Shown here in pieces: positions 1 through 60,665 of a stretch of DNA of 64,000 nucleotides. The DNA comes from Ascidiella aspersa (taxonomy: Eukaryota): assembly GCA_963924565.1 (NCBI GenBank), contig OZ004609.1:7254001-7318000 (forward strand), written 5' to 3'. The notes beneath the pieces were generated by a model. That model made no database searches. It was not told the DNA's origin and saw nothing but the letters and a program-made list of their open reading frames with translations. The translations under genes were made by a program, and so were the position numbers. Within the stretch, counting starts at the first letter, position 1, and the number at the start of each line of letters is the position of its first letter.

Positions 1-3000
1 CGAGCAAGAACAAATAAATCAAAGTTTACACAAAAAACTTTATTTCATATTAAAACTTAAAGAAGCTGACTGCATGGTTTGATAGTAATTCATTTTATAG
101 CATCCTAGATTTTAAACATACAAGCTAGGCTTATATTATAAAATATAAGCAATGAAATAGTAAAAACACTGGCCGGGTCATTAGAATGACTGCAGATACT
201 ACAGCCCAAAGTAAAGCCTTTAATGCCCAACCGTCAGGAATAAACTTTTACTTACTCCGCTTGAATGTTAGAAGCTGAAGGTATGTTGAGCTTTGAAACG
301 ACGGCTTCCAATTTTTTGCAAAAAATATTGCTGTTGCAGTAATCGAGTGACGGAGCACAGGCAAAGGTTGTCTGAGGAAAAGAAATCCCGTGTCCTACAA
401 GCAGATAAAAAAGAATTTTCAAAATCGTAAATATTGTTAACAGACCAGTACAATAAGACCTCTAATTTACAAAATGGAATCTATTGAGTTTGAGATAAAT
501 AAAAAAAAATATTTTTTTAGCACCAAAACAAAGATTCACGGGAATGTTTCCTAATAAACACTTCCGAAATGTATTTTTGCTTAACAAGGATAAATAATTT
601 ATCCTGTTTTAGTTGTGGACATTACGTCGGTAGGAAGTATGGTTCAAACAGATAAATTTACACACCCCCCCCTTTTTTTTTCACCGTTGCTAAACAGAGG
701 CCTTAACGCTGTTGGATGATATTTTTTCCGCTAATCATGACACTACTGGGCACCGACCAAAAAACACAACACAAGGCACCCGAAATAAATGCAACAGTTA
801 CCTTTAACTATTCCGGTGACATCGATGTCGTTAGTCAGACAAGCTGTCGTGCAAGAACTGCTGCTGTATGTGTCGTGCGCAAAGTTAATAGCGCCTGTGT
901 GGCAACGCAAATATTGGCCTTTCCTGGGCGTTTCGACCAAGTCGGGTCGCATGGTGCTGGCCACTGCTACACTGACCGTGGACGGGACGGTAGACATGGC
1001 GATGGACATAACTGTGGACAGGGCATTGGGCAGAACAGTTTCATTTCCCGAGCCGTAGTTTAGTTTGTAAACTTCCTTGGGCTTGTTGCAGCGGTATGTG
1101 GAGCAGCAGGTTGGCTGGCAGTTCCTGAAAGCAGTTAAGCGATTAGAAAAACTTGCCTCGATGTTAAATTTCACCAAGTACTTAAGTCGTTTTACTTCAC
1201 AAAAAATTTTCGGTCACAACATCAGCTGAAAGGGTCAAATAGTAGTTTTCCAAGTAATGCGAACTCAGTTTATGCCTTTTTATTGTATGAAAGCAACATG
1301 ACCATTTAAAGTACAGTTTGAGACGGTAAGAAAAGTCAATTTTGCCCTTAAAAACAGTAAACCTGCCCTAGTATATACGATTGGCCTATAGTTAAAACCT
1401 ATAGTTGAAATCAGTAATAATACCAAGCAACGATATATAGCTTCTACATGGAACGTTATACGTACCAGATTTCGAAAAGTTAAAGGCTTTTCGAGTATCA
1501 CTTTCCCGTAACACTTATACTTAATGCGACACTAGCAACTTTTTTGTGTTAGTAAAAATCATTCAAAAGTATATAATACTTAATTTTCACATTGCAAAAT
1601 AAAAAATCAACCCAAAAGTGGGTGCCAGTATATAAAGAAATGGACAACAATCAAGTAAACAAGCAATCTTCACGTTTATTTATTTACCTTATTTTAATAT
1701 CGTAACCTCTTACGGCGTTTTGGGCGATGTTGGTTACTCTTCTGCATGTTGCCAGTTTATCAACGCAGGAAAACCAATGGCTGGTGCAGCTAAAACTGGA
1801 CTGTAGGAAATTGATCGTCATACCTGAATTAAATATCGTCACGTCTAACTTTGCATTGCAATTTCATTAAATTATTTGATGCGAAGGGAAATTAAGTAGC
1901 AATCTTTTTTAAACAGTTGACAAAAAAAATATTTTTCACCGTTAAGGAAAGGCCTTTAGTATAAAAAAATAAGTTTTTTTTAAGTAGGGTTTTTTAGTTT
2001 CTTGAAAGTTACAACACTGCCTAACAAAAGGGGGTCTTCGAAAACATATTTTTATAGCTTAATTACCTTTTACTGTGGTGTACGCCATGTAATCGATTCT
2101 CATACATGAGGTTGTGCAAGTGGTGTCGGCGACACTATCAACAGCGTAGTTTTTTACCCCGGTCTGGCATGTAACAGCCATTGCGCAGGCAAGCATTGAA
2201 AACAGGCAGGCGAAGCTCAGCCATTTCTTCATCGTGCAACTTTTGATAGCAAGCTTAACGCTACCAGGAATGCAAATAAATTATTGAGCACTAAAAAGGC
2301 AAAAGATTCTTTATTTTAACCTTTGCCGCAGTTTCTAATGACTTAAAATGATGCGGCGTAACTTAGTTATACGTCGTTTGTTTACTCAGGTTAAATGTTT
2401 GTATTGCGAAATAAAAAAGCGAGTTTAATATTTGCCTCGATTCTGACTGTAACACAACAATAGAAGACAACCCTTCTGCGTGTTACGTTTTATGCGAAAA
2501 ATGTTGATGAAAAGCAAAAAATTAAGTGGATTTTCAGCCTGGGGCGTATAACGAAAGATTATTTCTGCCATTAGACGTGCTGCGGTGAGAGATCTCAATC
2601 GTATACGAATAGACAAAGCCTTGTCCCAAAACTCGTCAGTTCTTCGCCAAGACAAAGTTACGTCAATGCGCGTGACGCTAAAACGTCACGGTACTTTTTG
2701 AACTTTGCAATGGACGCAATTTCACCAAATCTGAGTTAAAGTTTTATTTTGCATACTTTTTCATACCCGGTTAATGATTTTTTAGTAAACACTGGTGTTT
2801 TGTGAAATATGGTCAGGTGTTTCGCAAAAAAAATTATCAATTTGACTTTTTTTTTATTAAACAATGGTAAAAATCACTGAAAAAAGCGACTTGTTTTATG
2901 AAATTAATTATCCACCATCACCAATGTGAATGCTCCGTAATTATTTTCTATATTTGTTGTTTGATATGATACAATTGTGATTGCCTGATTAGGCTACATT

Positions 3001-4630
3001 TCAATCCAAATATTAATTCATCTAAACAGGTCAAGATATAGCACTAAGAAAGACTGAATGTGAATAAAATGTCATTGTGTTGTATATGTATTTTTCTCTA
3101 TGCATCTAAATAGATTTTGCTTGGTGTTTGGCAAAATTAAGTTTAATGTGTAAACCATTTCGTGTCTCAAAATTGGTTAGAAAACTCTGCACTATGGAGC
3201 ACAGAAAACAATTGAGACGCGAAGCTAGCCTGTTGTCCAATCTCATCACCAAGTATTTTTGTAACGAGGAACCGAAATTGCCTCCGGTGCATAACGCCAC
3301 GTTCCTACTGTGACGTGCTTACTTACCTAAGTGAACGAGAAGCACATTTATAGCAAAGGAATTGCAAACCGGTCACGCTTTACAGAATTCAGAATGTTGC
3401 TCGTTAAATTGAACGAATCTAAAAAACACAAACAATGCTTTAAGCGTGTACAATTATTTTAAAAACAAATTAGGCAAAACTTGCATCACAAAATTGAACA
3501 AACGGCATTTATGCATATTATTTAAAGGTCAGTTGGCAAAACTCTTTGAAACATGAAACTTTTTGCAATTTAGGTATAGTGAATAATATCCATTCATTCA
3601 GTAGGCCAAATAAATGACTGCCAATTCAGTTCTTTTGAATATGACCAACCGCCTCTTTTTTTTTTTAAAAATAGGTCTTTGTAGTCAAGTGGTTTACCGA
3701 GAAAAAAACTGTCATTTGATAACATTGTTTAATCATAGGGGATCACCCATGTTTTTTTAAATAAAGCCTCATAAAATGCCTCTAAATTTAAAAAAAGTAT
3801 TCTATTTTTTGTGCACGAGGCTGTTAGCTGCCACCGTGAAGTGACAACAAGGTCACAATGGCTGCGCAAATATTCAAATTTAAGATTATTTTTGGGCATA
3901 ATGGTTAAAGGTTTCAGTTAGACGTATAAAAGGAATAGCATTTTGAACAATTGGAACATCTCTTTATTCATTTATTGAGATGTTCAAAATGCTATAAACT
4001 TTTATTTCAGCTTTGTGATTTATTTTATTGCGTGAAACGCGAACTAATGAAAGAGAGTATTAAAGTTTTTTTGCAAAAGATCAGCAAAACACACGAACCA
4101 GTAAATAAACAAAGCAGCTGTTTTCGATAAGGAGAAAAATTTTGATGAAAAGCAAAAAATTAAGTGGATTTTCAGCCTGGGGCGTATAACGATAGATTAT
4201 TTCTGCCATTAGACGTGCTGCGGTGAGAGATCTCAATCGTATACGAATAGACAAAGCCTTGTCCCAAAACTCGTCAGTCTGGTTTGCACATGGAATACGA
4301 CTAATTCGCGAACGACTTTAGTCGAACTAGAAACGTTAGAATAAAAAGTAAGTTTTAATTTCATGCGATGTTCACCTCAAGTCAACTACTTTAAATTTTC
4401 TTGGAAACATGTTTAAAACTTTTGTGTACACATTTTAACATGTTGACTCGAAAGCAAATTCACGTCACTTTTTGATGTGCGTTCATTTTTTTCATCAAAT
4501 TTTGATGTACTTTCATTTGTGAAATAACTTATGTCAAAGTCAAGGGTTTGAAAAAATAGCCAAGTCACCAGTAGCGCAACTTAAGTCATTATTAAGGCAA
4601 GTCATCTCCAAGTCAAATCACTAATATTGC
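1..4630. repeat. Segmental duplication unit (paralog A plus upstream region), homologous to ~16745-21925
   Basis: Colinear matches 1-470 to 16745-17215, exons of A to exons of B, and 3190-4630 to 20165-21925. A third partial copy lies at ~9720-10430. Confidence 0.85.
256..2232 (-). CDS. Two-domain Ly6/uPAR (three-finger)-like protein, paralog A; last exon lies beyond the left window edge
   Basis: GT-AG exons 2067-2232, 1688-1823, 802-1124 and 256-394 with compatible phases 1/2/1/2. Translation: MKKWLSFACLFSMLACAMA|VTCQTGVKNYAVDSVADTTCTTSCMRIDYMAYTTVKGMTINFLQSSFSCTSHWFSCVDKLATCRRVTNIAQNAVRGYDIKIRNCQPTCCSTYRCN, then an S/T-rich linker, then RCHTGAINF...CTTACLTND...FACAPSLDYCNSNIFC. Signal peptide and CCxxxxCN motif present; exon sizes match paralogs B and C. 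Confidence 0.85.
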
Positions 4631-7142: not shown

Positions 7143-8270
7143 TGACAACACAAATTTTTCATATTCTTGACAATGTAACCTTTCCATACTTCTAACAACA
7201 CAAAGTTGCCATAATTCTGACAACGTAACCTTGCCATATTCCTAACAACACAAAGTTGCCATAATTCTGACAACGTAACCTTGCCATATTCCTGAAAACA
7301 CAAAGTTGCCATATTCCTAACAACACAAAGTTGACATATTTCTGACAACGTAACCTTGCCATATCCCTTGCAACACAAAGTTGCCATATTCCTGACAACA
7401 CAAAGTTGCCATATTCCTGACAACGTAACCTTGCCATATTCCTGACAACACAAAGTTGCCATATTCCCGACAACACAAAGTTGCCATATTCCTGACAACG
7501 TAACCTTGCCATATTCCTAACAACACAAAGTTGCCATAATTCTGACAATGTAACCTTGCTATATCCCTTGCAACACAAAGTTACCATATTCCTGACAACA
7601 CAAAGTTGCCATATTCCTGACAACGTAACCTTGCCATATTCCTGACAACACAAAGTTGCCATATTCCTAACAACACAAAGTTGACATATTTCTGACTACG
7701 TAACCTTGCCATATCCCTTGCAACACAAAGTTGCCATATTCCTGACAACACAAAGTTGCCATATTCCTGACAACGTAACCTTGCCATATTCCTGACAACA
7801 CAAAGTTGCCATATTCCTAACAAAACAAAGTTGCTATATTCCTGAAAACACAAAGTTGTCATATTCCTAACAACACAAAGTTGACATATTTCTGACTACG
7901 TAACCTTGCCATATCCCTTGCAACACAAAGTTACCATATTCCTGACAACACAAATTTGCCATATTCCTGACAACGTAACCTTGCCATATTCCTGACAACA
8001 CAAAGTTGCCATATTCCTGACAACACAAAGTTGCCATATTCCTGACAACGGATGCTTGCCATATTGCTGACAATGCAACTTTACCATATTCCTGACAACA
8101 CAAAGTTGCCATATTCCTGACAACGTAATTTTGCCATATTCCTGACAACACAAAGTTGCCATATTCCTGTCAACACAAAGTTGCCATACTACTGACAACG
8201 AAAGCTTGCCATATTACTGAAAACGAAAGCTTGCCATATTCCTGACAACGCAACCTTACCATATTCCGAC
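7143..8270. repeat. 25-bp minisatellite, ~45 units, two main variants
   Basis: Units TTGCCATATTCCTGACAACACAAAG and TTGCCATATTCCTGACAACGTAACC, degenerate at both ends. Confidence 0.95.
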
Positions 8271-8714: not shown

Positions 8715-9490
8715 TAAAAAAAAACTTTTTTGACAAATTTCAGTGGGGACCCCATGGAAATGTTAGGTTGCGTTTAAAATCCCAACAAAACAAATCTGAG
8801 CACGTTTGGTTCAGTATTGCCCGTGCTACGTCAATTTGAAAATTCAGATTTAGGCTAAAAATTTGGAAAAAAGTAATTTGTCCTCCCCTAGATAATTTTT
8901 TTTTCTACTTTTTTGCTTTGCTTTGCAATTGGTATGAATAAATCTGTTTTACAGTTTAAAAGTAAGTGGTCATTGACATTGTATAAATGTTTCATTTTAA
9001 CAACATTTGTTAGGCTGTTTTATACAAAAAATGGCTTAAATATTTAAAATAAATTAATTGAATCACACAAGACATCAATTCAATAAAATAGTGCATTTGG
9101 TCTTCACACAATTATACCAATTACTTATCTAAAGTTCAAAAAAACGTGCTAAAAAGCCATTTTTCATACATAACAGCCTAACAAATGTTGTTGAAATGTG
9201 ACATTTGTACCACGACTACATACTTTTTTACTGTAAAACAGGTTTATTTATAGCTATTCAATTGCAAAGCAATGCAAAAAAAGTAGAAAAAAAATTATTT
9301 TAGGGGGGGAGGATAATTTATTTTTTTCCAAATTTTTAGCCTAAATCGGAATTTTTAAATTGACGTAGCACATTCACTACTGAACCAAACGTGCTCAGAT
9401 TTGTTTTGTGGGTTTTTTAGACGCAACCTAACAATTCTAGGGTATACCCACTTCAATTTGACAAAAAAGTGTTTTTTTGAACAACCCTAC
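8715..9490. mobile_element. Foldback / long-TIR non-autonomous element
   Basis: ~8715-9040 is the reverse complement of ~9150-9480 (e.g. AACAAATCTGAGCACGTTTGGTTCAGTA / TACTGAACCAAACGTGCTCAGATTTGTT), with a ~110-bp spacer. Confidence 0.8.
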
Positions 9491-10527
9491 TGAAAATTTC
9501 AACTTAGTGCTTTTCTGCAACAAGCAATATTAACTTCGCGGACCGCACACTGATTTTCATAATCAACGTCCATGATTTCGAGCGAACTAATTCGCAAATA
9601 TGCAGCTGAAATCCAAGCTATTCCCCCAAAGGGCGAAACAAATGTTTTTTTTGGTAAGCCCATTATTAAAAAAAACGTTACGCATTAAAATAAGACACTT
9701 AAAAGAGAATCGCATATATATATCGTTGTAATAAGCCGCCTGTTTTTTTAAAACGGGTCTTTGTAGTCCAGTGGTTCACCGAAAAAAATCTGTCATTTGG
9801 TAACATTGTTTAATCATAGGGAATCACCCATTTTTTTTAATAAAGCCTTATAAAATGCCTCGAAATTAAAAAAAAGTATTCTATTTTTTTGTGTATGAGG
9901 CAGTTAGCTGTGACCGTGAAGTGGCAACAAGATCAAAATGGCTGCGCAAATATTCAAATTTAAGATTATTTTCGGGCATAATGGTTAAAGGTTTCAGTTA
10001 GACGTATAAAAGGAATAGCATTTTGAACGATTCAACATCTCTTTATTTATTTATTTATTTATTGAGATGTTCAAAACGCTATAAACTTTTATTTTAGCTT
10101 TGTGATTTATTTCATTGCGTGAAACGCGAACTAATGGAAGAGAGTAGAAAGGTTGTTTTTGCAAAAGATCAGCAAAAAAAACGAACCTGTAAATGAACAA
10201 AGCAGCAGTTTGCGATAAGCAGAAAAACTTTGATGAAAAGCTAAAAATAAGTGGATTTTCACCCTGGGGCGTATAACGAAAGATTATTTCTGCCATAAGA
10301 CGCGCTGCGGTGAGAGATCTCAATCGTATACGAATAGATTACAACTTTTGTGCACCCATTTTAATTTGTTGACTGTAATTCTTCTTTGTGACACTTTTGG
10401 ATCTATTTTAATGTGTGTAATGTTGTATCGTCATGATTGATTTGTGAGTTGTGATAGGGTGCGAGCTGGAGCGAACTTTCGACGTAAAAGTGTGAAAAGA
10501 TGACTGGCAGTTTCAACAAAAATATCA

Positions 10528-10740: not shown

Positions 10741-10847
10741 TTCATTACGCTAAAGCGCACATCTGCAACCGGCGTAATTCCGAACCCTTTTTATGGTGGC
10801 AATTATTAAGGAATTGCAAAATAGCACGGTCTACGAATGTACTAGGA

Positions 10848-11623: not shown

Positions 11624-12817
11624 TACTAGGATATCCTCTTTATTGTGGAAAACACAGCGTGCGTGATATTGTATGAACTGGCGATGTTATACGCCTTGGT
11701 TAAAAGAGCGTTAGCTCAATTCCGTTTGTACGTAAAGGGAATAAAACTGGACCAGTTGGCGTAAGTACCCGAGTGAGTCAGTTTACGAAAAACTTTGGTA
11801 AGTAAACCTTGACTACCGCGCTATAAAAGTACATCCCAAGTTTTGATATTTTAATTGGAATTACTAAAAAAACCCATACTGTGTTCCAAAATAACTGGCA
11901 GATTTGTCACAAATTATACGCAAATGGCACGTTGCAATGTCACGCAAAGGTGAAATTGTTAAAGTCTACGGTCAAACCGAAAAACTTTGATTTGTTTTTC
12001 TCGCGATTTGACCGTTCTGTTTTAGTAAAAATAGACTTGGTTGAGTGACGCAATTGCTCTACCTGGTTGCCGTTTGGCAACCGACATCCAAACAAATAAA
12101 GTGGACTATGCGTCAGGTAAAACTAAGCGTAGCAAGGTTGGAGTATTTACGTAAATCACGATGTCGTCATTATTACAATGAAGCTTTCAGTGCCTGCTAA
12201 ATGATGTAAACTTGTCTGAGGTATAAGTTGCTTTGGCGCGGTTAAAAATAGATAAGTCATTTTTATCGAGAACCATACAAGCAAATAACAAATGGCAACG
12301 TATATCTAATATCAACACGACAAAACTAGGTTGTGCAGCAAATGAACAGGTTTAACTCGTTCGCTTTCAGTTCGCTTTTAGCCAAGAAAAGACACATCTT
12401 ACTGAACCGAACCAATGCAACGAATCTATTAGTCTTTTTGAGGGAGATTAATTAATATTATTTAAAAAAAAATCGAAATGGCATAAATTGACGCTGTAAA
12501 ATACAAGTCGTGATGTCATGCGGGAGTGGATCGATTTTTTGACACGTTCGGTTTCATTTCAGGATTTTAACTCATTCGGTTACGGTTCGGAAAGAATTGA
12601 CCCAAAAGTGGTTCAAAAAGTTCTGGTTAGGGCCCGGTTCTACACCCTAAAGAAAACTAACATAATATAATTGAAACAACTGAAATGGTCTAAAATTGAT
12701 TCTAATCTAATTTTAAAGCGGTAAAATAAATCTAATTGCCCAATTGTGTACTCGACCATCTAAGAGGCCGCTGTATTACATCCGGACTTGGCGTTCAGCG
12801 TTCTACTGCTTTGTGTT

Positions 12818-15855: not shown

Positions 15856-15945
15856 TTACGAAAGAAAGTTCAACGTGAAAACAGTTAAGATAGAAACCGA
15901 ACACAAGACGATCCATTGTCAAGCAGTTCGTTGAGCTCCGGCTTT
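15856..15945 (-). pseudogene. Orphaned GPI-signal coding relic of paralog B
   Basis: Reads KAGAQRTA*QWIVLCSVSILTVFTLNFLS* and aligns with the paralog C tail ESGAERSASQWVGLCAISILTAFKLYFQS*. TGA at 15919-15921 stands where C has TCA (Ser). Confidence 0.85.
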
Positions 15946-15957
15946 AACTGTGTAACT

Positions 15958-16302
15958 CAGGATTAGGCAATTATTTTAACAAAAGGCAGCATAAGCGACA
16001 AAAAGTGCATTTGCGGGTCAGATAAAGGGGACTGGAAATACACATAATATGAAGTGTGATTCCTTTGAAAATATACTGAAAATATTTTAGTTTTGAAAGC
16101 TAATAAGAGTGGGAATAAGTGATGATGCCTTGCATGTGAAATTGATTCACTAAAATGTTCTAAAATTACCAAAAAATGTGTTTTCTATGAAAAATGTTTT
16201 ATAAAATGTTAGCCAAGGGCCGAATTTAAATTGCTTTGCGGTCTAAATTAAATTGCTTTGGGGTCGAGCTTGGCTCGCAGGGACTTTTTCTGCCATTTGA
16301 TG
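15958..16302. mobile_element. Decayed MITE-like insertion inside the last exon of paralog B
   Basis: ~345 bp absent from the homologous exon of paralogs C and D. Starts CAGGATTAGGCAA (hAT-MITE-like end); the opposite end and the flanking duplication are degenerate. Confidence 0.55.
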
Positions 16303-19228
16303 TTGTATATTCTGGAAGGATCCCGAGCGTTGCATTTCGAAGAGTAACAACACTTTGTTTTGCAGTTTCTGTAACAAACATTCGTTGTTGTTAGTCGACT
16401 TCCATTGGATTATAAAATCCTATCCGTACATTACCGTCGAATATTTTTCTAAAAAACACTTGAATTTTAAAGTCTTACAAAATATTATTGTTAAAATTAT
16501 TTCGTAGAAAAACGCAGGACATGGTAGATTGGCATTTTATTTTGTACCAAGCTCAATGGACCATTCCACACGCAAATACAATGATCAAGGAACAAACCCT
16601 ATATTTAAACACTCTGTTTATTGATTTGAACAGAACGTAATATGTTCAAAGCTAAGATTTAGACATTTTCGAATTTATTTAGTCGTAATGCGATCTATTT
16701 GAGCAAACCACCACAGGCGATATGAGTCGCTTAACGCTGTTAGGCGAGCAAGCATAAATAAATCAAAGTTTACACAACAAAACTTTGTTGCATATCAAAA
16801 CTTAAAGAAGCTGAAGTCAGGGTTTGTAAGTAATTCTTTTTTTAAACGTGCAATTTGAGTTAGGCTTATAGTATCATAGAAACAATGAAATATCAAAAAC
16901 ACTGGCTGGATCATTAGAATGACTGCAGATACTACAGCCTAAAGTAAAGCCTTTAATGCCCAACCGTCAGCAATAAACTTTTGCTTACTCGGCTTGAATG
17001 CTAGTAGCTGAAGGTATGTCAAGCTTTGAAACGGCGGGTTTCAATTGTTTGCAAATAAGATTGTTGTTGCAGTAATCGAGATGCGGAGCACAGGAAAAGG
17101 TTGTCTGAGGAAACGAGAACCCTGTTCCTACAACGCGATAAATAAATGTTGCAATTTGAAAAATCGTTAATATTGGTAACAGACGAAAAACGTAACAAGT
17201 ACAAAAATATCTTTAATTCAGAAAAAACAAAATCTGTTGGGTTAAGAGGTATTTCTTTTGTAAGTAAAATATTTCTTCTTTTTTTTTTAGTTCAAAACTT
17301 TGTTTAGAACTGAGAAAAAGTTTCGCGGAAATGTTGCCTAATAAACAAAAAAATTAAAGCATTTATTGGTAAAAAAGATAAAGCATTTATTATTTATTTA
17401 GGCCAGTTTTGGATAGAAAAATTAGGTCTGAAGGAATTAATTTTCAAACCTCTATAGTATATGTTTCAACAGATATAACGCAAAACGAAGACAGACAAAA
17501 TGTAACCCAACCATTTTACACTCCTGCTAAAACAGCAGCTTTAACGCTGATGGCAGTTATTTTTCTGCTAACCAGGTCAATACTGGATACCGACCAAAAC
17601 TACCACACGAGTAACCTGAAAAAAGTATCATGGGTACCTTTTATCACTGCGGTGACATCGATCTCGTTGGTCAGGCAAGCTGTCGTGCAAGAACTGCTGC
17701 TGCTGTATGAGTCGTAGGCAACGTTAATAGTGCCTGTGTGACAGCGCAAATATCGGCCTTTCGTCGGCGTTTCGATCAATTTGGGTCGCGTGGTGGTGGA
17801 CACTGCTTTGCTGACCGTGAACGGGACAGTAGTCATGGCAATGGACATGACCGTGGACGAAACATTGGGCAACACGTTGTCATTTTGCGAGCCGTAGCTT
17901 AGCTTGTATTCACCCTCAGGCTTGTTGCAGCTGTTTGTGGAACAGCAGGTTGCCTTGCAGTCCCTGGAAGCAGTTAAGCGTTTCGATAAACATGCTCCGC
18001 AATAAAACTGTACCAAATACTCAAGTCGTGTTACTACACAAGAAACAACCAGTGTCAACAGTAGCTAACCTGGTCAAATAGCCGTTTGTTAAGTAACGCA
18101 CTGTCATTTTATGTCAAAAACATGGCTAACTAAAATTGAACAATACTTTCCAATAACACTTATTCTGAATACGATACTAGCAACTGCTTGGTGTGTATCA
18201 GAACATTTTTAAGACTTACGCTTTTTTAGTTTTATTTGTTTGTGGGGGTGGGGGGGTGGGGCAAAAGTGCCCTTTTCATGAAAAGCTTCCTCTCTTGTTT
18301 TACTTAAAAATAGAAAAATTAGAAAATTCAAGTAACTTTTACTAGTCCACAGGGCCGACAGGAATAGGGCTGGAGCTACAAAAAATCCAAACAAATTTGT
18401 CAAATGACATGGTTGACATTTGTTAAAACATTTTTGGTACCATTTTAAGCCAATCTATAAGGCGTGGCCGCAAAAAAAATTCCGGGCGAGTACCCCGGTA
18501 CCCCCCAATATTTCGGCTGGCTACGCTCGCCTGCAGTCTATATTGCCCTTACCAAAAAAGTTATCCCCCTTGCCCTAAAATCGCTCCAGCGTCCCAGGTT
18601 TTATATTCATGTATGTCACTTTAAAGTTGCACAAGTAACATAACCAATCATGTTATTAATGAGCATTTAAAGTTGTGCGCTTGGGAATTTAGCTTATTGG
18701 TAATTTAAAGTCGCAATGAAAGACTGAGATCGTATCTTTAGATCAAACCTATAACATGATAATCCTGTAACATTGCTAAAAATTCGACCTAGACATGGGT
18801 GGACCAGTATTTGAGAACCAACGAGCAAATAAACAAGAAAACTTTAGGTCGAGATGCTCACTCTATTTTGATAGCGAAACCTCCCGCATTGTTTTCGATG
18901 GCGTTGGTGAGTTGCTTGCATGTGGCCTCCTTATCAATGCAGGATAATCCAGCGCTGGTGCAGCTAAAACTGGATTGTTCAAAACTGATCGGCATACCTG
19001 AAATAAAAATCGTCACGAGAGGTTCTTCGAAAACATATATGTATAGCTTAATTAAGTCTTACCCTTAGCTATGCTGTGCACCATGTAATCGATTCTTATA
19101 CATGAGGTTGTGCAATTAGTGTCGGTCACAGTATCAACAGCGTAGTTTTTTACCCCGCTCTGGCATGTAACAGCCATTGCGCAGGCAATCAGTGAAAACA
19201 AGCAGACGGAGCTCAACAAGACCTTCAT
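16248..19228 (-). CDS. Two-domain Ly6/uPAR-like protein, paralog B; ~295 aa, lacks GPI tail (basic C-terminus derived from an insertion)
   Basis: Exons 19063-19228, 18862-18997, 17638-17963, 16989-17127 and 16248-16368 (888 nt, open). MKVLLSSVCLFSLIACAMAVTCQSG...DCKATCCSTNSCN...NCKTKCCYSSKCNARDPSRIYNIKWQKKSLRAKLDPKAI*. All 20 domain cysteines are retained. Confidence 0.82.
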
Positions 19229-37200: not shown

Positions 37201-38500
37201 TGGTCAGAAAACTGCAGCAGAGCCAAAGCATTCTGGTGCTTCGCAACCCTTACCGGGCCTTTATTGCTTTCGCGAATTGGGAAGTGAAAGGGCACACTGG
37301 CATCGCAACCAAGCAAGAACTATTAGAAAGTATGGATCAGGTTTAGCGTTTTGCGTTAAACAAAATACGGTAGTATCTTATATTTACGAAGTATTTATCA
37401 CAAAAACCGTTTATTAGTTAGAGCCTTGGTAAGTTTTCCAGGGGGTGTGTTGGAGTTTTAGCGTAAATCTGTCTACGGCGAAAGGTTGAGATCGTTGAAA
37501 AGTTGGAATACTTTCTGACAGTTAACCTGTTTTATATTCAGGCGTGATTTTTACAGCCGTTTCAGTTGGTTAACTAACAAAACTGAAAACTCATGAGACC
37601 AACTTCTGTCCAACTTGTAACACCCCTGCTCAGCGGTAACACCCCTGCACACCTTTTTAAACGCTACTTACAAAAATGAGAACAAGATATATGAAAAAAC
37701 ATCGCATAAAAATCAAGCATTTTTGACTTATATATTGGCTGATGGAGTATTAAAAAACAACGATGAATTTGGCTGTCATGTTGCCGAACCAAGTAATTGA
37801 CTTAACAAAAGTTTTTAAATCCTTTACATTGTCTTCGGTTTTTGTTTTTAAATGACCTTTTCAAGTTAGATATATGTTAAATCTTGGTTCTTAACTTCAA
37901 AGCACATCTTTTCTCTAAAATTTTGAGCATGTGTTATGTCAAAGTTTTGATTTTGCATTTCCTAACTTTTAATTTCCATGCAAACAACGTATTTAGAACA
38001 TTTACTTGACGTATACCATGACATTGTATCTGAAAAGCCTCGTTTACATTACTGACAATATCGCCTGACACATCTGCTTGAAATCTCCACGTTTCGTTGC
38101 AGGGTTCTCCCGTCAACCACCCAAGGTTCGCATAAATGAATGGAAGAGCATGCCGGTTACGCTAATAGCACAGGGCAAGCCGCTGCTGGTCATTTACTTT
38201 GAAGACGTTGTTGCTGATCCGATCGAGAGTGTGCGGAAAATGGTGACGTTCGCCGCCAAGGCCAACCCAGAACTTCTGCCAGCCGATTTAGACGAAAGGC
38301 TTGCTTGTCTCAGCCAGGAGACGACCGGACTTCAGAAAAGAGCTTCGCACAAGGTGATCCAGAACCTATACTCAAAAGAGTCGGTTTCGTTGATAAACAA
38401 AGCCGTGGTCGAACTACGAGCTATATTAGCGAAGGCCGGCGTCGAAAAACCTCTTCCGCCTTATGAGCTGGACCCGGATTACGCTGTTGTTCGAACATGA
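31227..38500 (+). CDS. WSCD1: WSC domain-containing sulfotransferase (WSCD1/WSCD2-like), ~493 aa type II membrane protein
   Basis: Exons 31227-31360, 31968-31996, 32399-32513, 33330-33508, 34015-34213, 35544-35782, 37141-37329 and 38103-38500 (1482 nt, phases consistent). Signal anchor [22 protein letters not shown]; WSC domains (DVGCF...MCIKSC...[12 protein letters not shown]...CDVTC...NCGG; LLGCF...CLRAC...CICG); PAPS-binding [26 protein letters not shown] and LRNPY; [17 protein letters not shown]1 versus WSCD2 orthology is not resolved. Confidence 0.9.
34553..34862. mobile_element. hAT-type MITE in a WSCD intron
   Basis: Ends AGTGGTTCTCAACC...GGTTGAGGAACACTG with subterminal CGGCACCCC motifs. 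Confidence 0.6.
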
Positions 38501-39979
38501 GGAGGCGAAACGCTGCTGCTTTAGCACGATTTATGACCGATTTCAGCCTTTCTCATCCTTTTCTGTGAAGACCAAATTACAAGCGTAAGTATAACAGACA
38601 AGATAACCAAATCGAAGCGACATACCTCAATCAAGCAGCGAGCCAGCTTTGGGTTGGCAAACACTGTTTTATTATATTAATACCTGGAATGATGTCATGC
38701 TTGTTTATGTCACACCCACAGTAACCTTGTCATACCACAGGCATAAAGCAAACGTCTTGTCCTGTGTGTTAATTATTTTTTATGTTTTATTTTTGTTAGC
38801 GAGCAGTCATGTAAAAAAAAGTTTTGTTTGCGGTATGTCTCGATTCTATTACCACTCATCACCGGACGTTTAGACAAACTGCGATGGTTTTATAGCTGGT
38901 TTTAAAACTCTAATTTTTGGCCTTTGCTTAAGAACAAATAAAATGCAAAATGAGCGTATTAAATGCAATAAAAGTAGCCCTGATCCATACCAACTTTAAC
39001 AATAACCCTAATCCTAAATCTATGTGACGTTCAAAACATTCCATGTGTGCTACGAAAAACAACTGTTTTAATGACAAAATAGAAACAACCTATTTCTTAT
39101 ATTTTTTTCTCAAAAAAGGAAGATTTTAACTGAGCTTGATTTTTTATTAAATATGTTGTTTTCTCCTTATTTAATTATCATTGCGTCTCACTCACCTAAG
39201 TTTTCTTACCTCGTTTGACTTCGCTGCAGCTGATCCTTTCACCTACGATCTATTTCTTATCTTTACACCATTCGTATCATTAGTTACGTTTTACAATTGT
39301 ACATATTGATGCTGTTAAATCGAGAAATGTTTGAAAATTAAGGGAGTTTGAAAGACAGGTTTGAGTAAAGCAAGAATAATCATTAAATTATGGCTACTTT
39401 CGTCTGAGCCCCCTTTTAGATATCGGTTGCTAATGATTTTACACTATTTGGTGTTAAATTTGTGTTTGCCGTATGCAAATTGCCAAAAAAGAAATCGCCA
39501 ACGTAATATAATTGAAGATGCTTCTTGTAGCGATTAGGCAACCATAGGCCGTCTATGGGAACTAATATTTATATATAGCAAAACCACTCAAGCACGGCTT
39601 GGATTACACAGGCTTATTCTCGCTGTGAGCGTGTCATATGAAGCACGATTGTGCGAAAGCTTGTCAAGAATCAAACCAATTGGTCGTTATATGGTGTCAC
39701 CTTGGTCCTTGATTACCATATTTTGGATTAGACAAATACAGCCATTTACGAGGAATAGATTTAGTTGCATATCGAAGGCTTGCGAGTTGGAGCAATTTAA
39801 TAGACCAAGTTGGAAATCATAAAACGGCGCATTCCCTTGTCCGTCTGTGCGGTAATGTGCACGCCAACTTAGTAGGGGTAGTATATTACATTGGCTTGAC
39901 ATTTGCTAACGCCAAAACATGAAAATGACCAGTTACATAAATGTAATAGGCATAATGTATTCAATCTAAGACTCTAAGT

Positions 39980-40859: not shown

Positions 40860-41168
40860 TTAAGTTTAAGTCAAGTATTTTCGAATAAATAACAATTCAA
40901 GTCCCAGTCCATGTCATCAGTTGCACAAGTCAAGTTCCAGTCAAGTCATAATTAGAGCAAGTCAACTTAAAGTCACGTCCTTATCGTAAAAGTAAAACGT
41001 CAAACAAATGGAAGTATAAAACTTTTGTGTGCAAAAATTTGGATAAGTAGCTCAATTTTATTGAAAAAAGACTTAAAACACTACATTTGAACCCAAGTCA
41101 TTTGTCCGAAAGACTTAAGTCAAGAAAAGTCATTTAAGTCAAGTTACTGACTTGAGTTATTACAACAT
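40860..41168. repeat. Dispersed AAGTC/GACTT-rich repeat family (also ~4530-4975, 21820-21920, 35140-35515, 36965-37075, 49995-50095)
   Basis: Dense AAGTCAAGTC/GACTTGACTT motifs and shared blocks such as AACCCAAGTCATT, in both orientations. Confidence 0.65.
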
Positions 41169-41177
41169 CGAAAAATG

Positions 41178-41372
41178 CTAATTGAGCGAGGAAACAACAC
41201 GCGGTCGTTCGGGGTGACCGAACAGCGGAATGCCTTGCATCCTTTTGTCATCTTTCCTTTTGTAAAGGTTGTCCACGTTGATGCCGTGCAAGATCCTGCA
41301 AAGCTGGCACCATCCGCTCTTGCACTCTGCGTTCGGCATTTCGCCTTTAGCCATCGTCACCCAATCCATGTA
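41178..41372 (-). pseudogene. Gene fragment resembling the C-terminus of a GT10 alpha-1,3-fucosyltransferase
   Basis: GC-richer island encoding YMDWVTMAKGEMPNAECKSGWCQLCRILHGINVDNLY...IPLFGHPERPRVVSSLN. The Y-x-x-W...C-x-x-C-x-x-L pattern matches GT10 C-termini from memory. No start or upstream exons. Confidence 0.4.
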
Positions 41373-41411
41373 GACGATTTGAATGTGAAACTATTCCTTA
41401 TTTTGTTGAAG

Positions 41412-42975
41412 GTCGATCAGTTTTTTTCGACATGACAACCATTGCTTGTGCTCGGTATCTCGATAACTGCAATAGCACTGTTTTTTGCAAAAGTTTGGAA
41501 AACGGCATTTCAGACCTCAACATACCATCAGCTTGTGTGGATCTTAACGTAGAGTTAGTGAAAGTCGTTTGGTAATGGTTGGTCACTAAATGCTTTAGAC
41601 TGTAGCATTTACAGTAATTTTATCATTTCGGCCAATATTTTTGTTATGCCATTATCTCGACTTAGGCCTAGCGTGAATTGCTAGGTATTTGGTTTAAAAA
41701 ATTTCTGGAAATATTATAAAAAGTCTGAAGTTATGCTCCAACATACATCTAAAGATACTTTTCAAATTAGTTCGCCGCGATAAAATAATAATTTGCCTGT
41801 TGGTTTTTATGGGTTATCACGTAAGCCAGTGGTTCCCAACCTTTTTGTTGTCGCGACCCCTTTTCCAGTTTTCGAAACTTACGCGACCCTTCAAATTTGA
41901 ATTGATACATTGACTGAAGTAAATTAGAGTCACATTTGAATTGGTAAAACGATCACATTTCTCAACCGAGTGTTGTAAATTTGGTTAAACTATACGGATT
42001 AACGAAAAAAGTATACTAGCTTATAAAGGTACGATTTAAGCCTGCAATCGCCGCATTAAGATTTTTATTCGATAACACTATTTGACTAAACTTTAGTTTA
42101 ATCGTTAATGTGATGTAATAATCGTTATTGTGATGTAATAAATATGGTTCTTGTCACAACGGTTAATAGTTTTTGCTTGTGATTTCTGTCTTTAATGAGT
42201 CTGAAGATAAACATCGTACAATATAAACAATTGCAACTTGAATTATAGGTTTAAGTTTTCACTTAAAGTTCTTTAGTAAACTTAAGTGTGTACTGTTCCA
42301 AAAAAGGTTGACAAGCACTGCCGTAGGCTACCTATGATTGATACCGGGAACTCAATAGCAAGCCTACATTGTTAAAATAATATTCTCGCACTTTCTTCCT
42401 GGCAGCTCACTGTTTGAACATTCACTATCATTACAAGTTAATTTTTTAAGCTAATTAATTCGCATTCTAGCACTAGTGATTTGTATTTTTGATCGTCGTC
42501 TTCGCGACCCCCAGAGAACATGCAAACCCCCACCCGGGGGTCGCGACCTCCAGGTTGAAAACCACTGACGTAAGCAATATAACAAAAAAAAACTAATTTT
42601 TTTCTGTAAAAAATAAAAAAAAAGTTACTTTTGCTTATTTCAAAACTTTATCCTAAAATCTTTGTAAAAGCAAATAAACATAACTAGCTACTAACATAAC
42701 GTGTACCATTTTTAAATGAGCTGACAAAGCTGTCTGACAAACATCCTTACTTCCTTGTCACCAACGCACTTAAAATTCTCCTGTAACAGCCGAAAACCAA
42801 TTTTTTGCAGAAATTGTGAAACAAAATGTTGCTACTCATCGGTTTGTAACACTCCGGATTTCTCGAGAATCCACAAAAAAAAACGTGGAGCGGAGCTGAA
42901 CGAACTGCTTCACAGTGGGTTGGCTTATGTGCGATTTCTATTGGAACTGCATTCAAGTTGTATTTTTGGTCATAA
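41412..42975 (+). pseudogene. 5'-truncated duplicate of paralog C (paralog D; exons 4-5 only, frameshifted before the GPI signal)
   Basis: Exon 41412-41553 (GRSVFFDMTTIACARYLDNCNSTVFCKSLENGISDLNIPSACVDLNVE) and exon from 42811 (NCETKCCYSSVCN). The GPI tail SGAERTASQWVGLCAISIGTAFKLYFWS* is out of frame after the A9 run at 42875-42883. Homology to C starts at ~41375; I found no exons 1-3 upstream. Confidence 0.8.
41827..42567. mobile_element. hAT-type MITE inserted in the intron of paralog D
   Basis: TIR CAGTGGTTCCCAACCT / AGGTTGAAAACCACTG; perfect 8-bp TSD ACGTAAGC (41819-41826, 42568-42575). The empty site is visible in paralog C at ~48775-48785. Confidence 0.9.
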
Positions 42976-45329: not shown

Positions 45330-45515
45330 ACCGTGATGTTCAGGTGCGCTCTTCTTGTATCTCTGCCAGCATTGCTAAACTGTATTATGACCTTGTGGTG
45401 GGACATATTGTTTTAATAGTACTATGTTGTATTCCAGGTGTGATTAGCAATAGGTTTTATCATTTGTTACAGTCGCCAGGTTTAACAATGGATTACATCG
45501 CATAATCAAACATTT
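45330..45515. repeat. Dispersed repeat, second copy at ~53815-53990
   Basis: Shared GTGATGT.CA.GTGC.CTCTTC...GTGGTGGGAC...AGGTTTTATCA.TTGTTA.AGTCGCCAG. Confidence 0.65.
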
Positions 45516-46367
45516 TTTGTTTAGGCTTTTAGAAATAAACGTGAAAACCACACTTATAACTGCGAACGACAGCTCACCGTCGGAGATGCAGTAGGCTAAT
45601 TCGCATTGCAACTACACAGCCTAAAGGCCGACCTTGGCAATATAGTAAAAGGTTAAACTTTGGCATGGGGAGAAGTTCAAGATAAGAATTGGCACGTCGG
45701 CATGGTCGAGTTGGACACCCCTGTGATAAAGTAATTCGCAATTATAGTTTTATATAAAATTTCTTGAAAACAGCAATTTTGGAATAAAACTAAAAGATAA
45801 CAAAAAGATATCGTTTGATTTTTGTGTTTCAAACGTTTTGTTTTTGACTTGTTTCCGTTGTAATCATTATTTTTTTCTCAATTTTTATTTTCTAAACTAC
45901 ATGTAAAAATATTTGCAATAAACCAGTCGTTTTCTTATAACCGGACTGACAAGAGCTGTAGATACCATAACAAGATGAAAAGGAAAAGTACAGAAAATAA
46001 AACTTCAACACGGAATTTTACAAGTAGCGCGATTTGAAAGTTCAATTTGCATCGTGATGTGCAAGCGTCACGCGCATTGAGGTAATTTTGCGTAATCAGA
46101 GAAAAGAACGAGACGCATAAAACGTGTCACGCTGAAAAGTTATTATTGTTGCAGCAGTAAGAGTCAATAGCAGAGTCAATAGCAAGAGTTTAAATCATGC
46201 ATTACGGAGTCCGCAGATTTTTTAGGATATTTCTCAACACTGTTGACTAAATCGTTGTTGATTCACAGTTCATTGTTTGTTGCATTCCAGAATCTATAGA
46301 CAACTCATCACTTTGTTTGACATACTGGAAAGATTAAACTTGAAAACCTAAAAAATAAAGTTGAACA

Positions 46368-49053
46368 ATGAAGGTTTGGTTGAGTTTTTTCTGCTTGTTC
46401 TCATTGCTCGCCTGCGCAATGGCTGTTATTTGCAATTTGGGCAAAAAAAACTACCTTAGGCAGAGTGTTGTACTTTTTTGGTGCCCAGACTCATGCTTGA
46501 GAGCCGACTACATGATGCACAGCACAATGCTCGGTAAGGCTTTGACTTACCGTATGTAGATGGCGCTATTTTGCTGTTCTTTCGCAGTGTTATAAGTGCA
46601 AAGAGGGAACTTTTGCTACTAAAGCGTTAAAATGTTTACATCTTATAACTCTAAAAAAAATTAAGTGGGATAGTCTCGAGCCTTGTTAAGACAAGCCTAT
46701 TTCTTCCTTTAGGGGAAATAAATCCTGTTTCTTATGTTCACAATCAAGCTACCTTATTTCGTTACAAATTACGTTCCAACTTAGTTTGCTTTCAATGTTA
46801 TAAAATTAGGAAAAATCCATTACAAACTTCGACCTGAAACAATTATAATACCAATCGTGTCAATGTTTATTTCAGGTAAATCTACATATTTTCGACAATC
46901 CGATTTTAGGTGCGGCAGTCGTAGTTCATGCATTGATAAGGTGGCCGCATGCAGCAAAATCATCAACAACATCGTAAGTTTGTCATCATTCATCAGAACG
47001 ACAGCAAGGTAAGCTGTTTACAAAAAACTAGATGTTGCTTCCCTAGCCCCCGCTGAAAACATTAGACAACAAAACAACTATTACAATTACCTTCAGAAAA
47101 AGGTCACATCTCCAAATATAGAAAGAATTTAAAAAAATAAATACGTTATTTTTTTTAAGAGACTGGACACTGGCCTACGAAATTTGATAACAATGGAGAC
47201 TCTGAAACCATGTGTTACGTAGCTTAGTGCATTGACATAAAATGACCCTGACGCCCAGTTTGAACATCAAACAATGGTGGCTAATTTCCCCTGGTCAGAT
47301 AAGATGAAAATTTTTTGGATTATATATCGACCCTATATGACACAACTAAGTTGAGAAACATTTAAACGTTTTAGATATTTCACTTTTTTGCTTAAAAAAG
47401 GGATACTATGATGAAAAATATCTTTTGTAAGCAAATCAGATGCCGATGAAATCACTTTTGAAAGCAATAATGACTCGTTTGTCATTGATTCTAGCTAGTC
47501 CATTTGTAGACAGGGTCATCTATGGTAAAATCCGGGGCAAAGTTTTCTTTGGCATGTTGTTGTTATTCAATAATGATTTCTATGCAATCAAATTCTTCCA
47601 TAGGTCGATTTGTAAGTCTCTTAATACAACTCTTAGTGTAAGATTACTACGATCAATGAAATTACTCTTTCCTATTACCTAAAGTTGGTTTATGTTATTT
47701 CAGTTCCGTTTGTTGTGTCATTACAGTACCGTTACACACTGAACGAAAATCCTGGAAGGACTATCGTAATCTATATATTAATTCCGGGTGGGGTGCCGTA
47801 AGCCATAAAGTTTCGGCACCACTACAGTATAAAATCGGAGCGAAAACGCTCAACCGCTTTTCTCTTTGCTAAACGCTCAACCGCTTTCAGTGACTGTATT
47901 GCGACCTGTTGCTCAACAAACGGTTGTAATTTACCCGAGGGAGAATACACGGTCAGCAGCAACCCATCAAGAACCACCGTCCATTATTGGCTTATAAATC
48001 CGCCCACCGTCCAGTCCACCACCCAGTCCACCTCCAGCACCAGCATAGCAGTAACCAGCAACGAAACGCCGGTAATAGGCCGACTCTCGAGATGCCACAA
48101 AGGCACGCTAAGCGTCCACCAGCAGTCGTTTACGACCATTCCTTGCACGACCGCTTGCCTGACCAACGAGGTCAACGTCACCGGGAAAGTTGAAGGTAAT
48201 CATTCGCATGGCTGCGGACGACATTTAAAACAGTGGTTAAAGTTAGACGACACGGTTCGAAAAATATTTTTTATCGTTCTAGTGAGAAAATTATTCTGTT
48301 TTCACCCCTGGTTTAAAACAACCCGATCAAATCAAGTTCGTTTTGTAAATTAAAGATGTTGCTCAATTATTGGTATTTTTGCGATTCGAATGTGAAACGT
48401 TTCCTTATTTTGTTTAAGGGCGGTCAGTGGTTTTCGACATGACAACATTTGCCTGTGCTCGGTCTCTCGATTACTGCAATAGCACTCTTTCTTGCAAAAC
48501 TTTGGAAAACGGCATTTCAGACCTCAACATACCATCAGCTTCGGACCTTAATGTAAAGTAAGTGAAAGGGCTTTATGCTGTAGTATCTACAGTAATGTTG
48601 GTAATCCGGCCAATATTTTTTTATTCCTGTCTCGACTTAGGCCTAACGCGAAAGGAAAACTTGTAAAAGTCTAAAGTTATGCTTCAAACATAGCCTACAT
48701 CTAAAGATAGGCTACTTTTCAAATTAATTTGCCGCGATAAAACAATAATTTGCCGGTTGGTATTTATGGGTTATTACCTGAGCAATATAACAAACTAAAA
48801 CTAAATTTTTCACATAAAAAAATAAATATTTTTGTTCAAAACTTTAGCACTCACTCATACACGCCGAATATAACAGCCCAATTTTTTCTACAGAAATTGC
48901 GAAACAAAATGTTGCCTCTCATCGGATTGTAACACTCGGGATCTGTCGAGAACTTACAATATGGAGAGCGGAGCTGAACGAAGTGCTTCACAGTGGGTTG
49001 GCTTATGTGCGATTTCTATTCTAACTGCATTCAAGTTGTATTTTCAGTCATAA
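46368..49053 (+). CDS. Two-domain Ly6/uPAR-like GPI-anchored protein, paralog C; ~300 aa, intact
   Basis: Exons 46368-46533, 46876-47008, 47891-48195, 48419-48557 and 48894-49053 (903 nt, open). MKVWLSFFCLFSLLACAMAVICNLG...DCIATCCSTNGCN, T/S/P linker, RCHKG...NCETKCCLSSDCN, then ESGA (small residues, omega-like) and hydrophobic tail WVGLCAISILTAFKLYFQS*. Confidence 0.88.

Positions 49054-50521: not shown

Positions 50522-60665
<10,144 letters not shown>

What the first reader, a model, noticed from the sequence alone, without database searches (positions are those of the whole stretch)
256..49053. Birth-and-death cluster of tandem two-domain three-finger proteins with a non-canonical cysteine pattern
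Seen: four paralogs share the same exon plan and phases. Both domains follow C-x16-C-x3-C-x24-C-x6-C-x5/6-C-x~20-C-x3-CC-x4-CN (one-residue indels in B domain 2 and C domain 1) and are joined by a mucin-like S/T linker. Established: CCxxxxCN plus a signal peptide and GPI tail marks the Ly6/uPAR family (CD59, Lynx1, Bouncer, uPAR), whose members usually begin C-x2-C. Here that N-terminal pair is absent and extra cysteines lie in the third loop. Inference: a lineage-specific family of surface and secreted recognition proteins (immunity, allorecognition, gamete recognition or receptor modulation). The genes are invisible in the ORF track because they are split into short exons.
Basis: partly seen in the sequence, partly recalled or inferred. 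Interest (0 to 1): 0.85.

Follow-up and report, generated by a model that had tools for sequence, protein, structure and literature searches.

The report
Sea-squirt two-domain Ly6-like gene cluster
A small cluster of duplicated, fast-changing genes, probably from a sea squirt, appears to encode surface and secreted proteins of the well-known Ly6/uPAR three-finger kind; the sequences have no recognisable relatives, but the overall design has clear precedents.

Summary
The genes are real. C is complete (signal peptide, two 10-Cys domains, S/T/P linker, GPI-type tail). A runs off the window edge. B is open but has lost its GPI tail. D is only two orphan 3' exons with a frameshift, so the count is three genes plus a remnant, not four matching paralogs. 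The cysteine spacing is as reported, and its motifs occur 6 times against at most 0.2 by chance.

The pattern is less odd than claimed. It has the LYPD6/Lynx2 cysteine order minus the loop-I pair, which is the ACVR2/BMPR2 ectodomain arrangement. A phase-1 intron sits at the loop-II tip, as in Ly6 genes. Anchor loss and orphan exons are also known in Ly6 clusters.

The neighbouring gene's best hit is an ascidian protein. Four searches found no homolog, but this species' own proteome is not in the database. About one third of codons are frozen and the rest evolve near neutrally. A positive-selection signal in domain 1 depends on the model. The three-finger fold was not confirmed structurally and expression is untested.

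Verdict: a lineage-specific variant of Ly6/uPAR proteins, probably binding a variable extracellular partner. Interest is moderate.

The parts
2067..2232 (-). Gene A exon 1: start codon, signal peptide (res 1-19), first part of domain 1 (Cys 1-3); phase-1 donor at loop-II midpoint
1688..1823 (-). Gene A exon 2: middle of domain 1 (Cys 4-6), phase 1 to 2
802..1124 (-). Gene A exon 3: end of domain 1 (C-x3-CC-x4-CN), 60-aa linker, start of domain 2
256..394 (-). Gene A exon 4: middle of domain 2; exon 5 expected beyond the left edge (1-445 aligns with B 16745-17184)
19063..19228 (-). Gene B exon 1 (signal peptide + start of domain 1)
18862..18997 (-). Gene B exon 2
17638..17963 (-). Gene B exon 3 (end of domain 1, linker, start of domain 2)
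16989..17127 (-). Gene B exon 4
16248..16368 (-). Gene B exon 5 to its stop: end of domain 2, then a hydrophilic, basic tail read from inserted DNA; no GPI signal
   Evidence: C-terminal hydropathy max -0.76
15955..16290 (-). About 336 bp of unrelated DNA that splits B's last exon; no full-length second copy in the window
15857..15954 (-). Stranded remnant of B's GPI-signal coding DNA, with an in-frame stop ahead of the hydrophobic stretch; poly(A) signal at about 15815
41412..41553 (+). Remnant D, exon-4 copy (C/D 81% aa identity over domain 2; extra Cys); similarity to C ends about 35 bp upstream (41375)
42811..42974 (+). Remnant D, exon-5 copy; out of frame at the A9 run 42876-42884 before the GPI-type tail
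46368..46533 (+). Gene C exon 1 (signal peptide + start of domain 1)
46876..47008 (+). Gene C exon 2
47891..48195 (+). Gene C exon 3 (end of domain 1, 54-aa S/T/P linker, start of domain 2)
48419..48557 (+). Gene C exon 4
48894..49053 (+). Gene C exon 5: end of domain 2, small-residue omega-site candidate at res 273-275, polar spacer, hydrophobic res 283-298, stop
   Evidence: hydropathy max 1.79; GPI call made by eye
45984..46090 (+). Conserved upstream non-coding element shared with A (2653-2760, 74% identity) and alignable in B: promoter or 5'-UTR exon candidate

Best explanation
A lineage-specific ascidian family of Ly6/uPAR-type proteins with two tandem three-finger domains. SHOWN: gene structure, 10 invariant Cys per domain, signal peptides, a hydrophobic tail on C, loss of that tail in B, and D as a remnant. 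INFERRED from LU-domain rules: disulfides 1-3, 2-4, 5-8, 6-7, 9-10 (the four invariant head bonds plus one loop-III bond), long loops II and III, C held on the cell surface by GPI, and B secreted. INFERRED, least certain: the membrane-distal domain 1, lifted by domain 2 and a glycosylated linker, binds a variable extracellular partner (microbial or parasite protein, toxin or enzyme, or a non-self cell or gamete). Domain 2 acts as the more constrained stalk, and anchor-less copies act as soluble binders. The domain duplicated first, then the gene duplicated and diverged, with some copies dying. Confidence by step: LU fold about 0.85; GPI on C about 0.8; B secreted about 0.7; variable-partner recognition about 0.5.
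For: Terminal CC-x4-CN in all 6 domain ends. Cys order equals LYPD6 and Lynx2 once their loop-I pair is removed: gaps 20-6-18-5-4-10-2-0-4 and 20-7-16-5-10-8-2-0-4 versus 16-3-24-6-6-20-3-0-4 here (from disulfide lists in PMC7582953). A phase-1 intron falls at residue 13 of the 24-residue loop II in both domains, where LU genes carry theirs (PMC6600238). Weak, sub-threshold pointers agree: Atlas hits ecTbetaR2 0.78 and UPAR_LY6 0.76; the only PDB sequence hit of alignment A2 is uPAR at E 5.8. Domain-1 copies and domain-2 copies form separate clades, support 100/99. Codon ML on A, B, C: omega 0.66 (p 0.0035 against 1); domain 1 0.85, domain 2 0.54; M1a puts about 1/3 of sites at omega near 0. 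M2a vs M1a for domain 1: 2dL 9.83, p 0.007, with 0 of 72 null simulations reaching it; domain 2 shows no signal. B keeps a 295-codon frame and all 20 domain Cys at dS 0.29 from A, although its tail remnant is dead.
Against: No whole-domain structure: the single-exon models were uninformative (mean pLDDT 38 and 48). No LU-clan Pfam hit on any exon, though these were fragments. Atlas scores below 0.9 are leads only, and a third of shuffled proteins also give clan-consistent top tens. Spacing differs from known LU domains: a 3-residue head turn against 6-7, an extra phase-2 intron, and no intron after the signal peptide. The domain-1 selection signal drops to p 0.087 (F1x4), 0.075 (equal frequencies) and 0.15 (ambiguous columns removed); it rests on three sequences and a post-hoc split, and 13 of 95 A/B codons differ at 2-3 positions, which can inflate it. 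No expression or binding data.
Confidence: 0.5

Rival explanations
1. LU-fold proteins that modulate a conserved host partner (nicotinic receptor, channel, Wnt co-receptor, junction or tunic component), like Lynx/LYPD6/Sleepless/Boudin. The fast divergence is relaxed constraint after duplication in a fast-evolving lineage.
For: Closest cysteine layout is LYPD6/Lynx2. Such roles are the commonest documented for GPI-anchored LU proteins (PMC6600238). Non-Cys domain codons fit omega 0.95, not above 1 (biased upward by removing conserved Cys). The positive-selection test fails under alternative models.
Against: Domain 1 is only 40-63% identical among paralogs with omega 0.85. No sequence link to LYPD6-like proteins, which are conserved from starfish to human at 67% similarity (PMC11595613; searches empty).
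Confidence: 0.25
2. The domain is not three-finger at all, but a convergent cysteine-rich module. The nematode ET module (Pfam PF01684) is a recalled look-alike with a C-x2-G start, C-x3-C and nested pairs; its own fold was not checked here.
For: No HMM support for any LU family; atypical spacing; domains of 92-95 aa exceed the 60-90 LU range.
Against: CC-x4-CN, the loop-II-tip phase-1 intron, signal peptide plus GPI-type tail and the LYPD6-like Cys order all coincide. No ET-module hit either. Paper searches listed nothing that defines the ET pattern, so that comparison is recall only.
Confidence: 0.12
3. A GPI-anchored or secreted decoy derived from an activin/BMP type II receptor ectodomain, trapping TGF-beta-family ligands.
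For: Same described disulfide change (2-3 lost, loop-III bond gained). The top named Atlas cluster for both exon-3 queries is ecTbetaR2 at 0.78 (weak, and TGFBR2 itself has a different pattern).
Against: The BMPR2 aromatic hot spot Y67/W85/F115 (PMC9234707) is not matched. The residue after Cys3 is M/I/L in 6 of 6 domains and the residue after Cys4 is T/G/A in 6 of 6, never Trp (mapping uses partly recalled BMPR2 Cys numbers, four of them seen). No transmembrane or kinase exon is attached. Near-neutral surface change is unexpected for a binder of conserved ligands.
Confidence: 0.07
4. A decaying, largely unexpressed cluster: B and D are pseudogenes and C is drifting.
For: D is a frameshifted fragment, B's tail is destroyed, and omega is high.
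Against: All domain Cys, splice sites and frames are intact in A, B and C at dS 0.3-0.7. M0 vs M1a p about 1e-11 for a frozen site class. Upstream non-coding element conserved.
Confidence: 0.06

Closest known systems
Ly6/uPAR (LU, three-finger) superfamily, multi-LU GPI-anchored members (C4.4A/LYPD3, Haldisin/LYPD5, zebrafish chr21 two-LU cluster, starfish two-LU proteins)
   Same: Signal peptide, two tandem domains ending CC-x4-CN, GPI-type tail, tandem cluster, phase-1 intron at loop-II tip
   Different: Loop-I bond absent and a loop-III bond added in both domains; 54-60 aa S/T/P linker between the domains; extra phase-2 intron; no intron after the signal peptide; no detectable sequence similarity
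LYPD6/LYPD6B and Lynx2 (LYPD1)
   Same: Extra disulfide in loop III; Cys order identical after removing their loop-I pair
   Different: They keep the loop-I pair (12 Cys), have one domain, shorter loops II and III, and are conserved across deuterostomes
ACVR2/BMPR2 ectodomains
   Same: 10 Cys, 2-3 bond lost, loop-III bond gained
   Different: No aromatic ligand hot spot, no TM or kinase, tandem domains, fast evolution
Squamate LY6/3FTX cluster and dipteran Ly6 clusters (as evolutionary models)
   Same: Tandem expansion, orphan exons, loss of the membrane anchor giving secreted forms (PMC10421932; PMC4476152)
   Different: Those are mostly single-domain; nothing here indicates a venom or toxin role
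Nematode ET module, Pfam PF01684 (recalled, not from a call)
   Same: Recalled C-x2-G start, C-x3-C, nested internal pairs, tandem repeats
   Different: No Pfam match on exon fragments; comparison untested

Membership tests
Ly6/uPAR (LU) superfamily | C-terminal CC-x4-C followed by Asn | tested here: met
   6 of 6 domain ends in the window; 0.18 expected by chance
Ly6/uPAR (LU) superfamily | Eight Cys in the order needed for the four invariant head disulfides | tested here: met
   Order and count fit in 5 of 5 complete domains against published LYPD6/Lynx2/SLURP1 maps; the bonding itself is inferred
Ly6/uPAR (LU) superfamily | Ancestral loop-I 2-3 disulfide (C-x2-C start); typical of the family but often lost within it | tested here: not met
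   C-x2-G in 6 of 6 starts. Loss is common in accepted members (PMC6600238), so this excludes the ancestral 10-Cys subtype, not the superfamily
Ly6/uPAR (LU) superfamily | Intron at the tip of loop II, phase 1 | tested here: met
   Residue 13 of 24 between Cys3 and Cys4 in both domains; rule
Ly6/uPAR (LU) superfamily | Separate signal-peptide exon; domain on two exons | tested here: not met
   Signal peptide and domain start share exon 1; each domain spans three exons. The review gives this as typical, not obligatory
Ly6/uPAR (LU) superfamily | Signal peptide and GPI signal (or secreted form) | tested here: met
   Hydropathy and by-eye motif only: signal peptide in 3 of 3 genes with exon 1; GPI-type tail in C, lost in B. 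No dedicated predictor was available
Ly6/uPAR (LU) superfamily | Match to a Pfam CL0117 HMM | tested here: inconclusive
   0 of 16 single-exon queries and none in alignments A2, A3; whole domains were not scanned
Ly6/uPAR (LU) superfamily | Three-finger beta fold | tested here: inconclusive
   Only single exons were folded: pLDDT 38 and 48; no fold search was run on them
TGF-beta type II receptor ectodomain (ACVR2/BMPR2) | 10 Cys, 2-3 bond lost, loop-III bond gained | tested here: met
   (count and order only)
TGF-beta type II receptor ectodomain (ACVR2/BMPR2) | Aromatic hot spot on the central sheet | tested here: not met
   mapping partly from recalled Cys numbering
TGF-beta type II receptor ectodomain (ACVR2/BMPR2) | Transmembrane helix and Ser/Thr kinase | tested here: not met
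   C ends at residue 300; the kinase at the right end of the window is a separate minus-strand gene
LYPD6/Lynx2 subfamily | 12 Cys, single domain, sequence orthology | tested here: not met
   10 Cys, two domains, no similarity found
Nematode ET module (PF01684) | HMM match over a whole repeat | tested here: inconclusive
   No hit on fragments; the pattern comparison is recalled

The most novel reading that the evidence does not exclude
These genes are part of a larger, undescribed ascidian family of polymorphic two-domain three-finger receptors. The distal domain is under diversifying selection, and membrane-bound and secreted versions are generated repeatedly by loss of the anchor. The family acts as a self/non-self or gamete-compatibility system (an invertebrate-chordate counterpart of Bouncer or of variable immune receptors) that standard LU HMMs miss entirely.
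Probability: 0.15. Interest if true: 0.78.

Novelty: new variant of a known kind. Interest (0 to 1): 0.4.

Why it matters
Tunicates are the sister group of vertebrates, yet the 2026 survey of three-finger proteins in 387 invertebrate genomes used amphioxus as its only chordate (PMC13719153). Five tunicate-directed paper searches (listings only) showed no study of a tunicate Ly6/uPAR family. If the fold holds, these domains give a seed profile for a divergent LU subtype, and the locus shows a GPI-to-secreted switch with the dead anchor DNA still in place. If domain 1 proves polymorphic and gamete- or haemocyte-expressed, it becomes a testable candidate for ascidian recognition. Without that, it is one more lineage-specific Ly6 expansion, which is common in animals.

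Tried and rejected
Homolog searches, all negative: exon-3 alignment A1, 190-2000 aa, 0 of 6077 candidates at E<=1; alignment A2, 10-189 aa, 0 of 455 at E<=10; HMMER with A2 on 1.84 billion representatives gave 3 hits, all rejected as repeat artefacts (an 11-fold LCCL protein and two Lipoprotein_15 repeat proteins); PDB sequences gave only uPAR at E 5.8, an unrelated chain at E 2.5, and nothing for exon 5. These negatives are weak. Queries were exon pieces, A1 and A2 lack the middle exon, and the control search with the neighbouring gene found only one protein at 52% identity, so this species and its close kin are not represented. The cluster look-up could not be made. Viral and metagenome contig collections were not searched; bacterial, phage and plasmid collections were judged irrelevant. 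Single-exon AlphaFold models were too poor to use, so no fold search was run. A seventh CC-xn-CN hit at 34678 (-) has a 5-residue gap and no other family exon, rejected as chance. A and B as alleles or an assembly duplicate: rejected (68% aa identity, dS 0.29). Exons 1-3 for D: none in the window. Whether D's frameshift is a homopolymer error cannot be told, but D lacks its 5' exons either way. My first models had exon-3 donors one base off and were corrected. The ET-module lead could not be supported from papers. The two-finger conotoxin paper (PMC12514838, passages) was not relevant. PMC7407461 mentions Ly6 only in a reference. No supplementary files were opened; the sequence tables of PMC13719153 could hold domains with this Cys pattern from other phyla.
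Full report
OBSERVATION. The window is eukaryotic DNA of about 36% GC. A six-frame scan found six CC-x4-CN motifs, and a self-comparison linked them into four related loci. Exon models with GT-AG introns and phases 1, 2, 1, 2 give gene A (minus, 2232 to 256, four exons, fifth off the left edge), gene B (minus, 19228 to 16248, 295 aa) and gene C (plus, 46368 to 49053, 300 aa). Each has a 19-residue hydrophobic leader ending A-x-A, then two domains. The cysteine gaps are 16/17, 3, 24, 5/6, 5/6, 20/22, 3, 0, 4, then Asn, in 5 of 5 complete domains. The three diagnostic motifs each occur 6 times, against means of 0.18, 0.02 and 0.12 in 60 simulated windows.

CORRECTIONS. Locus D is not a full paralog. 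Profile searches found three copies each of exons 1, 2 and 3, four of exon 4, and exon 5 in C, D and (in two pieces) B. D's similarity to C starts about 35 bp before its exon 4. It has an extra cysteine and is out of frame at a run of nine A before the tail. B's last exon is split by about 336 bp of unrelated DNA. B's frame stops in that insert with a hydrophilic end, and the stranded anchor DNA at 15954-15857 carries its own stop ahead of the hydrophobic stretch. So B lacks a GPI signal whether or not the insert were spliced out. Only C shows a GPI-type tail: small residues at 273-275, a polar spacer, hydrophobic 283-298 (judged by eye). The linkers are 54-60 aa with 22-37% S+T and 8-9% Pro.

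CONTEXT. A WSC-domain sulfotransferase gene lies between B and D (WSC hits; tblastn). Its last exon's only database hit, 1 of 600 candidates, is a Phallusia mammillata protein at 52%, an ascidian of family Ascidiidae. I infer an ascidian genome from that one hit. It also shows that this species' proteome is not in the database. A minus-strand protein kinase gene fills the right end.

HISTORY. Domain-1 copies and domain-2 copies form separate clades (support 100/99; 7 of 7 domain rows used; long branches flagged), with 22-34% identity between the two groups. Both domains carry introns at the same two places. So the domain duplicated first. A and B then split from C (dS about 0.66-0.70), A from B (dS 0.29, with flanking DNA co-duplicated) and D from C (dS about 0.2).

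WHAT IT IS. The LU review PMC6600238 (passages; part 2 of 9) defines the domain as 60-90 residues with bonds 1-5, 2-3, 4-6, 7-8, 9-10, an Asn after the last Cys, and an intron at the tip of loop II. It states that 2-3 is often lost, that ACVR2 and BMPR2 ectodomains lost it and gained a loop-III bond, and that LYPD6 has a similar extra bond. Published disulfide lists (PMC7582953, passages) give, after removing the loop-I pair, gaps 20-6-18-5-4-10-2-0-4 for LYPD6 and 20-7-16-5-10-8-2-0-4 for Lynx2. These have the same count and order as the domains here, which differ by a shorter head turn and longer loops II and III. The phase-1 intron lies at residue 13 of the 24-residue loop II. Two-LU GPI gene clusters exist in zebrafish and two-LU proteins in starfish (PMC11595613, passages); multi-LU Cys variation is surveyed in PMC6337849 (passages). 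Anchor loss, orphan exons and birth-and-death are described for the squamate LY6/3FTX cluster (PMC10421932, passages), and tandem expansion for insects (PMC4476152, passages). The pattern is therefore a known type of variation in a new combination.

WHAT WAS NOT SHOWN. No tool result establishes the fold. Pfam found no LU family in 16 of 16 single-exon queries or in alignments A2 and A3. The ESM Atlas gave only sub-0.9 leads: ecTbetaR2 at 0.78 twice and UPAR_LY6 at 0.76. The PDB sequence search gave uPAR at E 5.8. Single-exon AlphaFold models had pLDDT 38 and 48. Whole spliced domains were neither folded nor scanned against family libraries. No homolog was found. Because the queries were fragments and close relatives are absent from the database, this shows strong divergence but not the family's true range.

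SELECTION. Nei-Gojobori gave omega 0.64-0.68 over the coding region, with upper bootstrap limits 0.89-0.98. A codon likelihood model of my own, matching IQ-TREE likelihoods to within 0.3 units, gave omega 0.66 (p 0.0035 against 1), 0.85 for domain 1 and 0.54 for domain 2. About a third of sites are frozen and the rest are near neutral. M2a beat M1a for both domains together (p 0.039; 1 of 60 null simulations) and for domain 1 alone (p 0.007; 0 of 72), but not for domain 2. Against this: domain 1 gave p 0.087 and 0.075 under other codon frequencies, and 0.15 with 27 ambiguous columns removed. Only three sequences were available (D was left out), the split by domain was post hoc, and multi-base codon changes are frequent. 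The genes are constrained as proteins and evolve fast; diversifying selection on the distal domain is suggested, not established.

MECHANISM. Most likely C is a GPI-anchored surface protein and B a secreted form. Each presents two three-finger domains whose loops bind protein partners, as LU domains generally do. The faster, distal domain 1 would be the binding end and domain 2 the stalk. I put recognition of a variable outside partner (microbe, parasite, toxin or enzyme, non-self cell or gamete) at about 0.5 overall, modulation of a conserved host receptor at 0.25, a non-LU fold at 0.12, a TGF-beta decoy at 0.07 and a dead cluster at 0.06. The decoy idea fits the cysteine layout but not the ligand surface. 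BMPR2 binds through Y67, W85 and F115 (PMC9234707, passages), whereas the positions after Cys3 and Cys4 here are M/I/L and T/G/A in 6 of 6 domains. That mapping uses BMPR2 cysteine numbers that are partly recalled; four were seen in PMC7999465 (one passage). The resemblance to the nematode ET module is recalled and untested.

NOVELTY. The 2026 survey PMC13719153 (parts 1-3 of 4 read; supplements not opened) found LU genes in all genomes examined, tens per genome in most phyla, with amphioxus as the only chordate. Five searches aimed at tunicate LU proteins (listings only) showed no paper on such a family; the library lacks most subscription journals. The family seems undescribed, but expansions of this kind are common and every architectural feature has a precedent.

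Noticed in passing
window 31229-38500 (+): Multi-exon type II membrane WSC-domain sulfotransferase gene inside the cluster; two WSC domains; best hit Phallusia mammillata at 52% over the last exon.
   Followed up: partly
window about 51864-60620 (-): Protein kinase gene (Pkinase E 7.8e-12); by recalled likeness a DAPK/ZIPK-type kinase, with a last exon encoding an acidic stretch and a coiled-coil-like C-terminus.
   Followed up: no
window 41144-41435: GC-richer, coding-looking stretch directly upstream of remnant D with three overlapping open frames of 70-94 aa and no Pfam hit; it may mark the rearrangement that removed D's 5' exons.
   Followed up: partly
window 7143-8267: Minisatellite of about 25-bp units (TRF periods 50 and 75, 1.1 kb); its minus-strand frames read as Cys-rich repeats but show no gene features.
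   Followed up: no
window 8716-9478: 763-bp imperfect palindrome (76% self-complementary), MITE/foldback-like.
   Followed up: no
window 2496-4627, 9722-10431, 20091-22109: A family of interspersed repeats, several copies 85-98% identical, clustered upstream of A and B and partly co-duplicated with them; a possible substrate for the duplications.
   Followed up: no
window 45333-45479 and 53819-53964; 22199-22533 and 22993-23335; 25311-25417 and 26829-26939: Further dispersed, tandem and inverted repeat pairs.
   Followed up: no
window 39538-39922 (+): Two overlapping open frames of 94 and 69 aa between the sulfotransferase gene and D, no Pfam hit; possibly a decayed gene or element.
   Followed up: partly
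window 12817-12939: Hexamer repeat array of about 20 copies.
   Followed up: no
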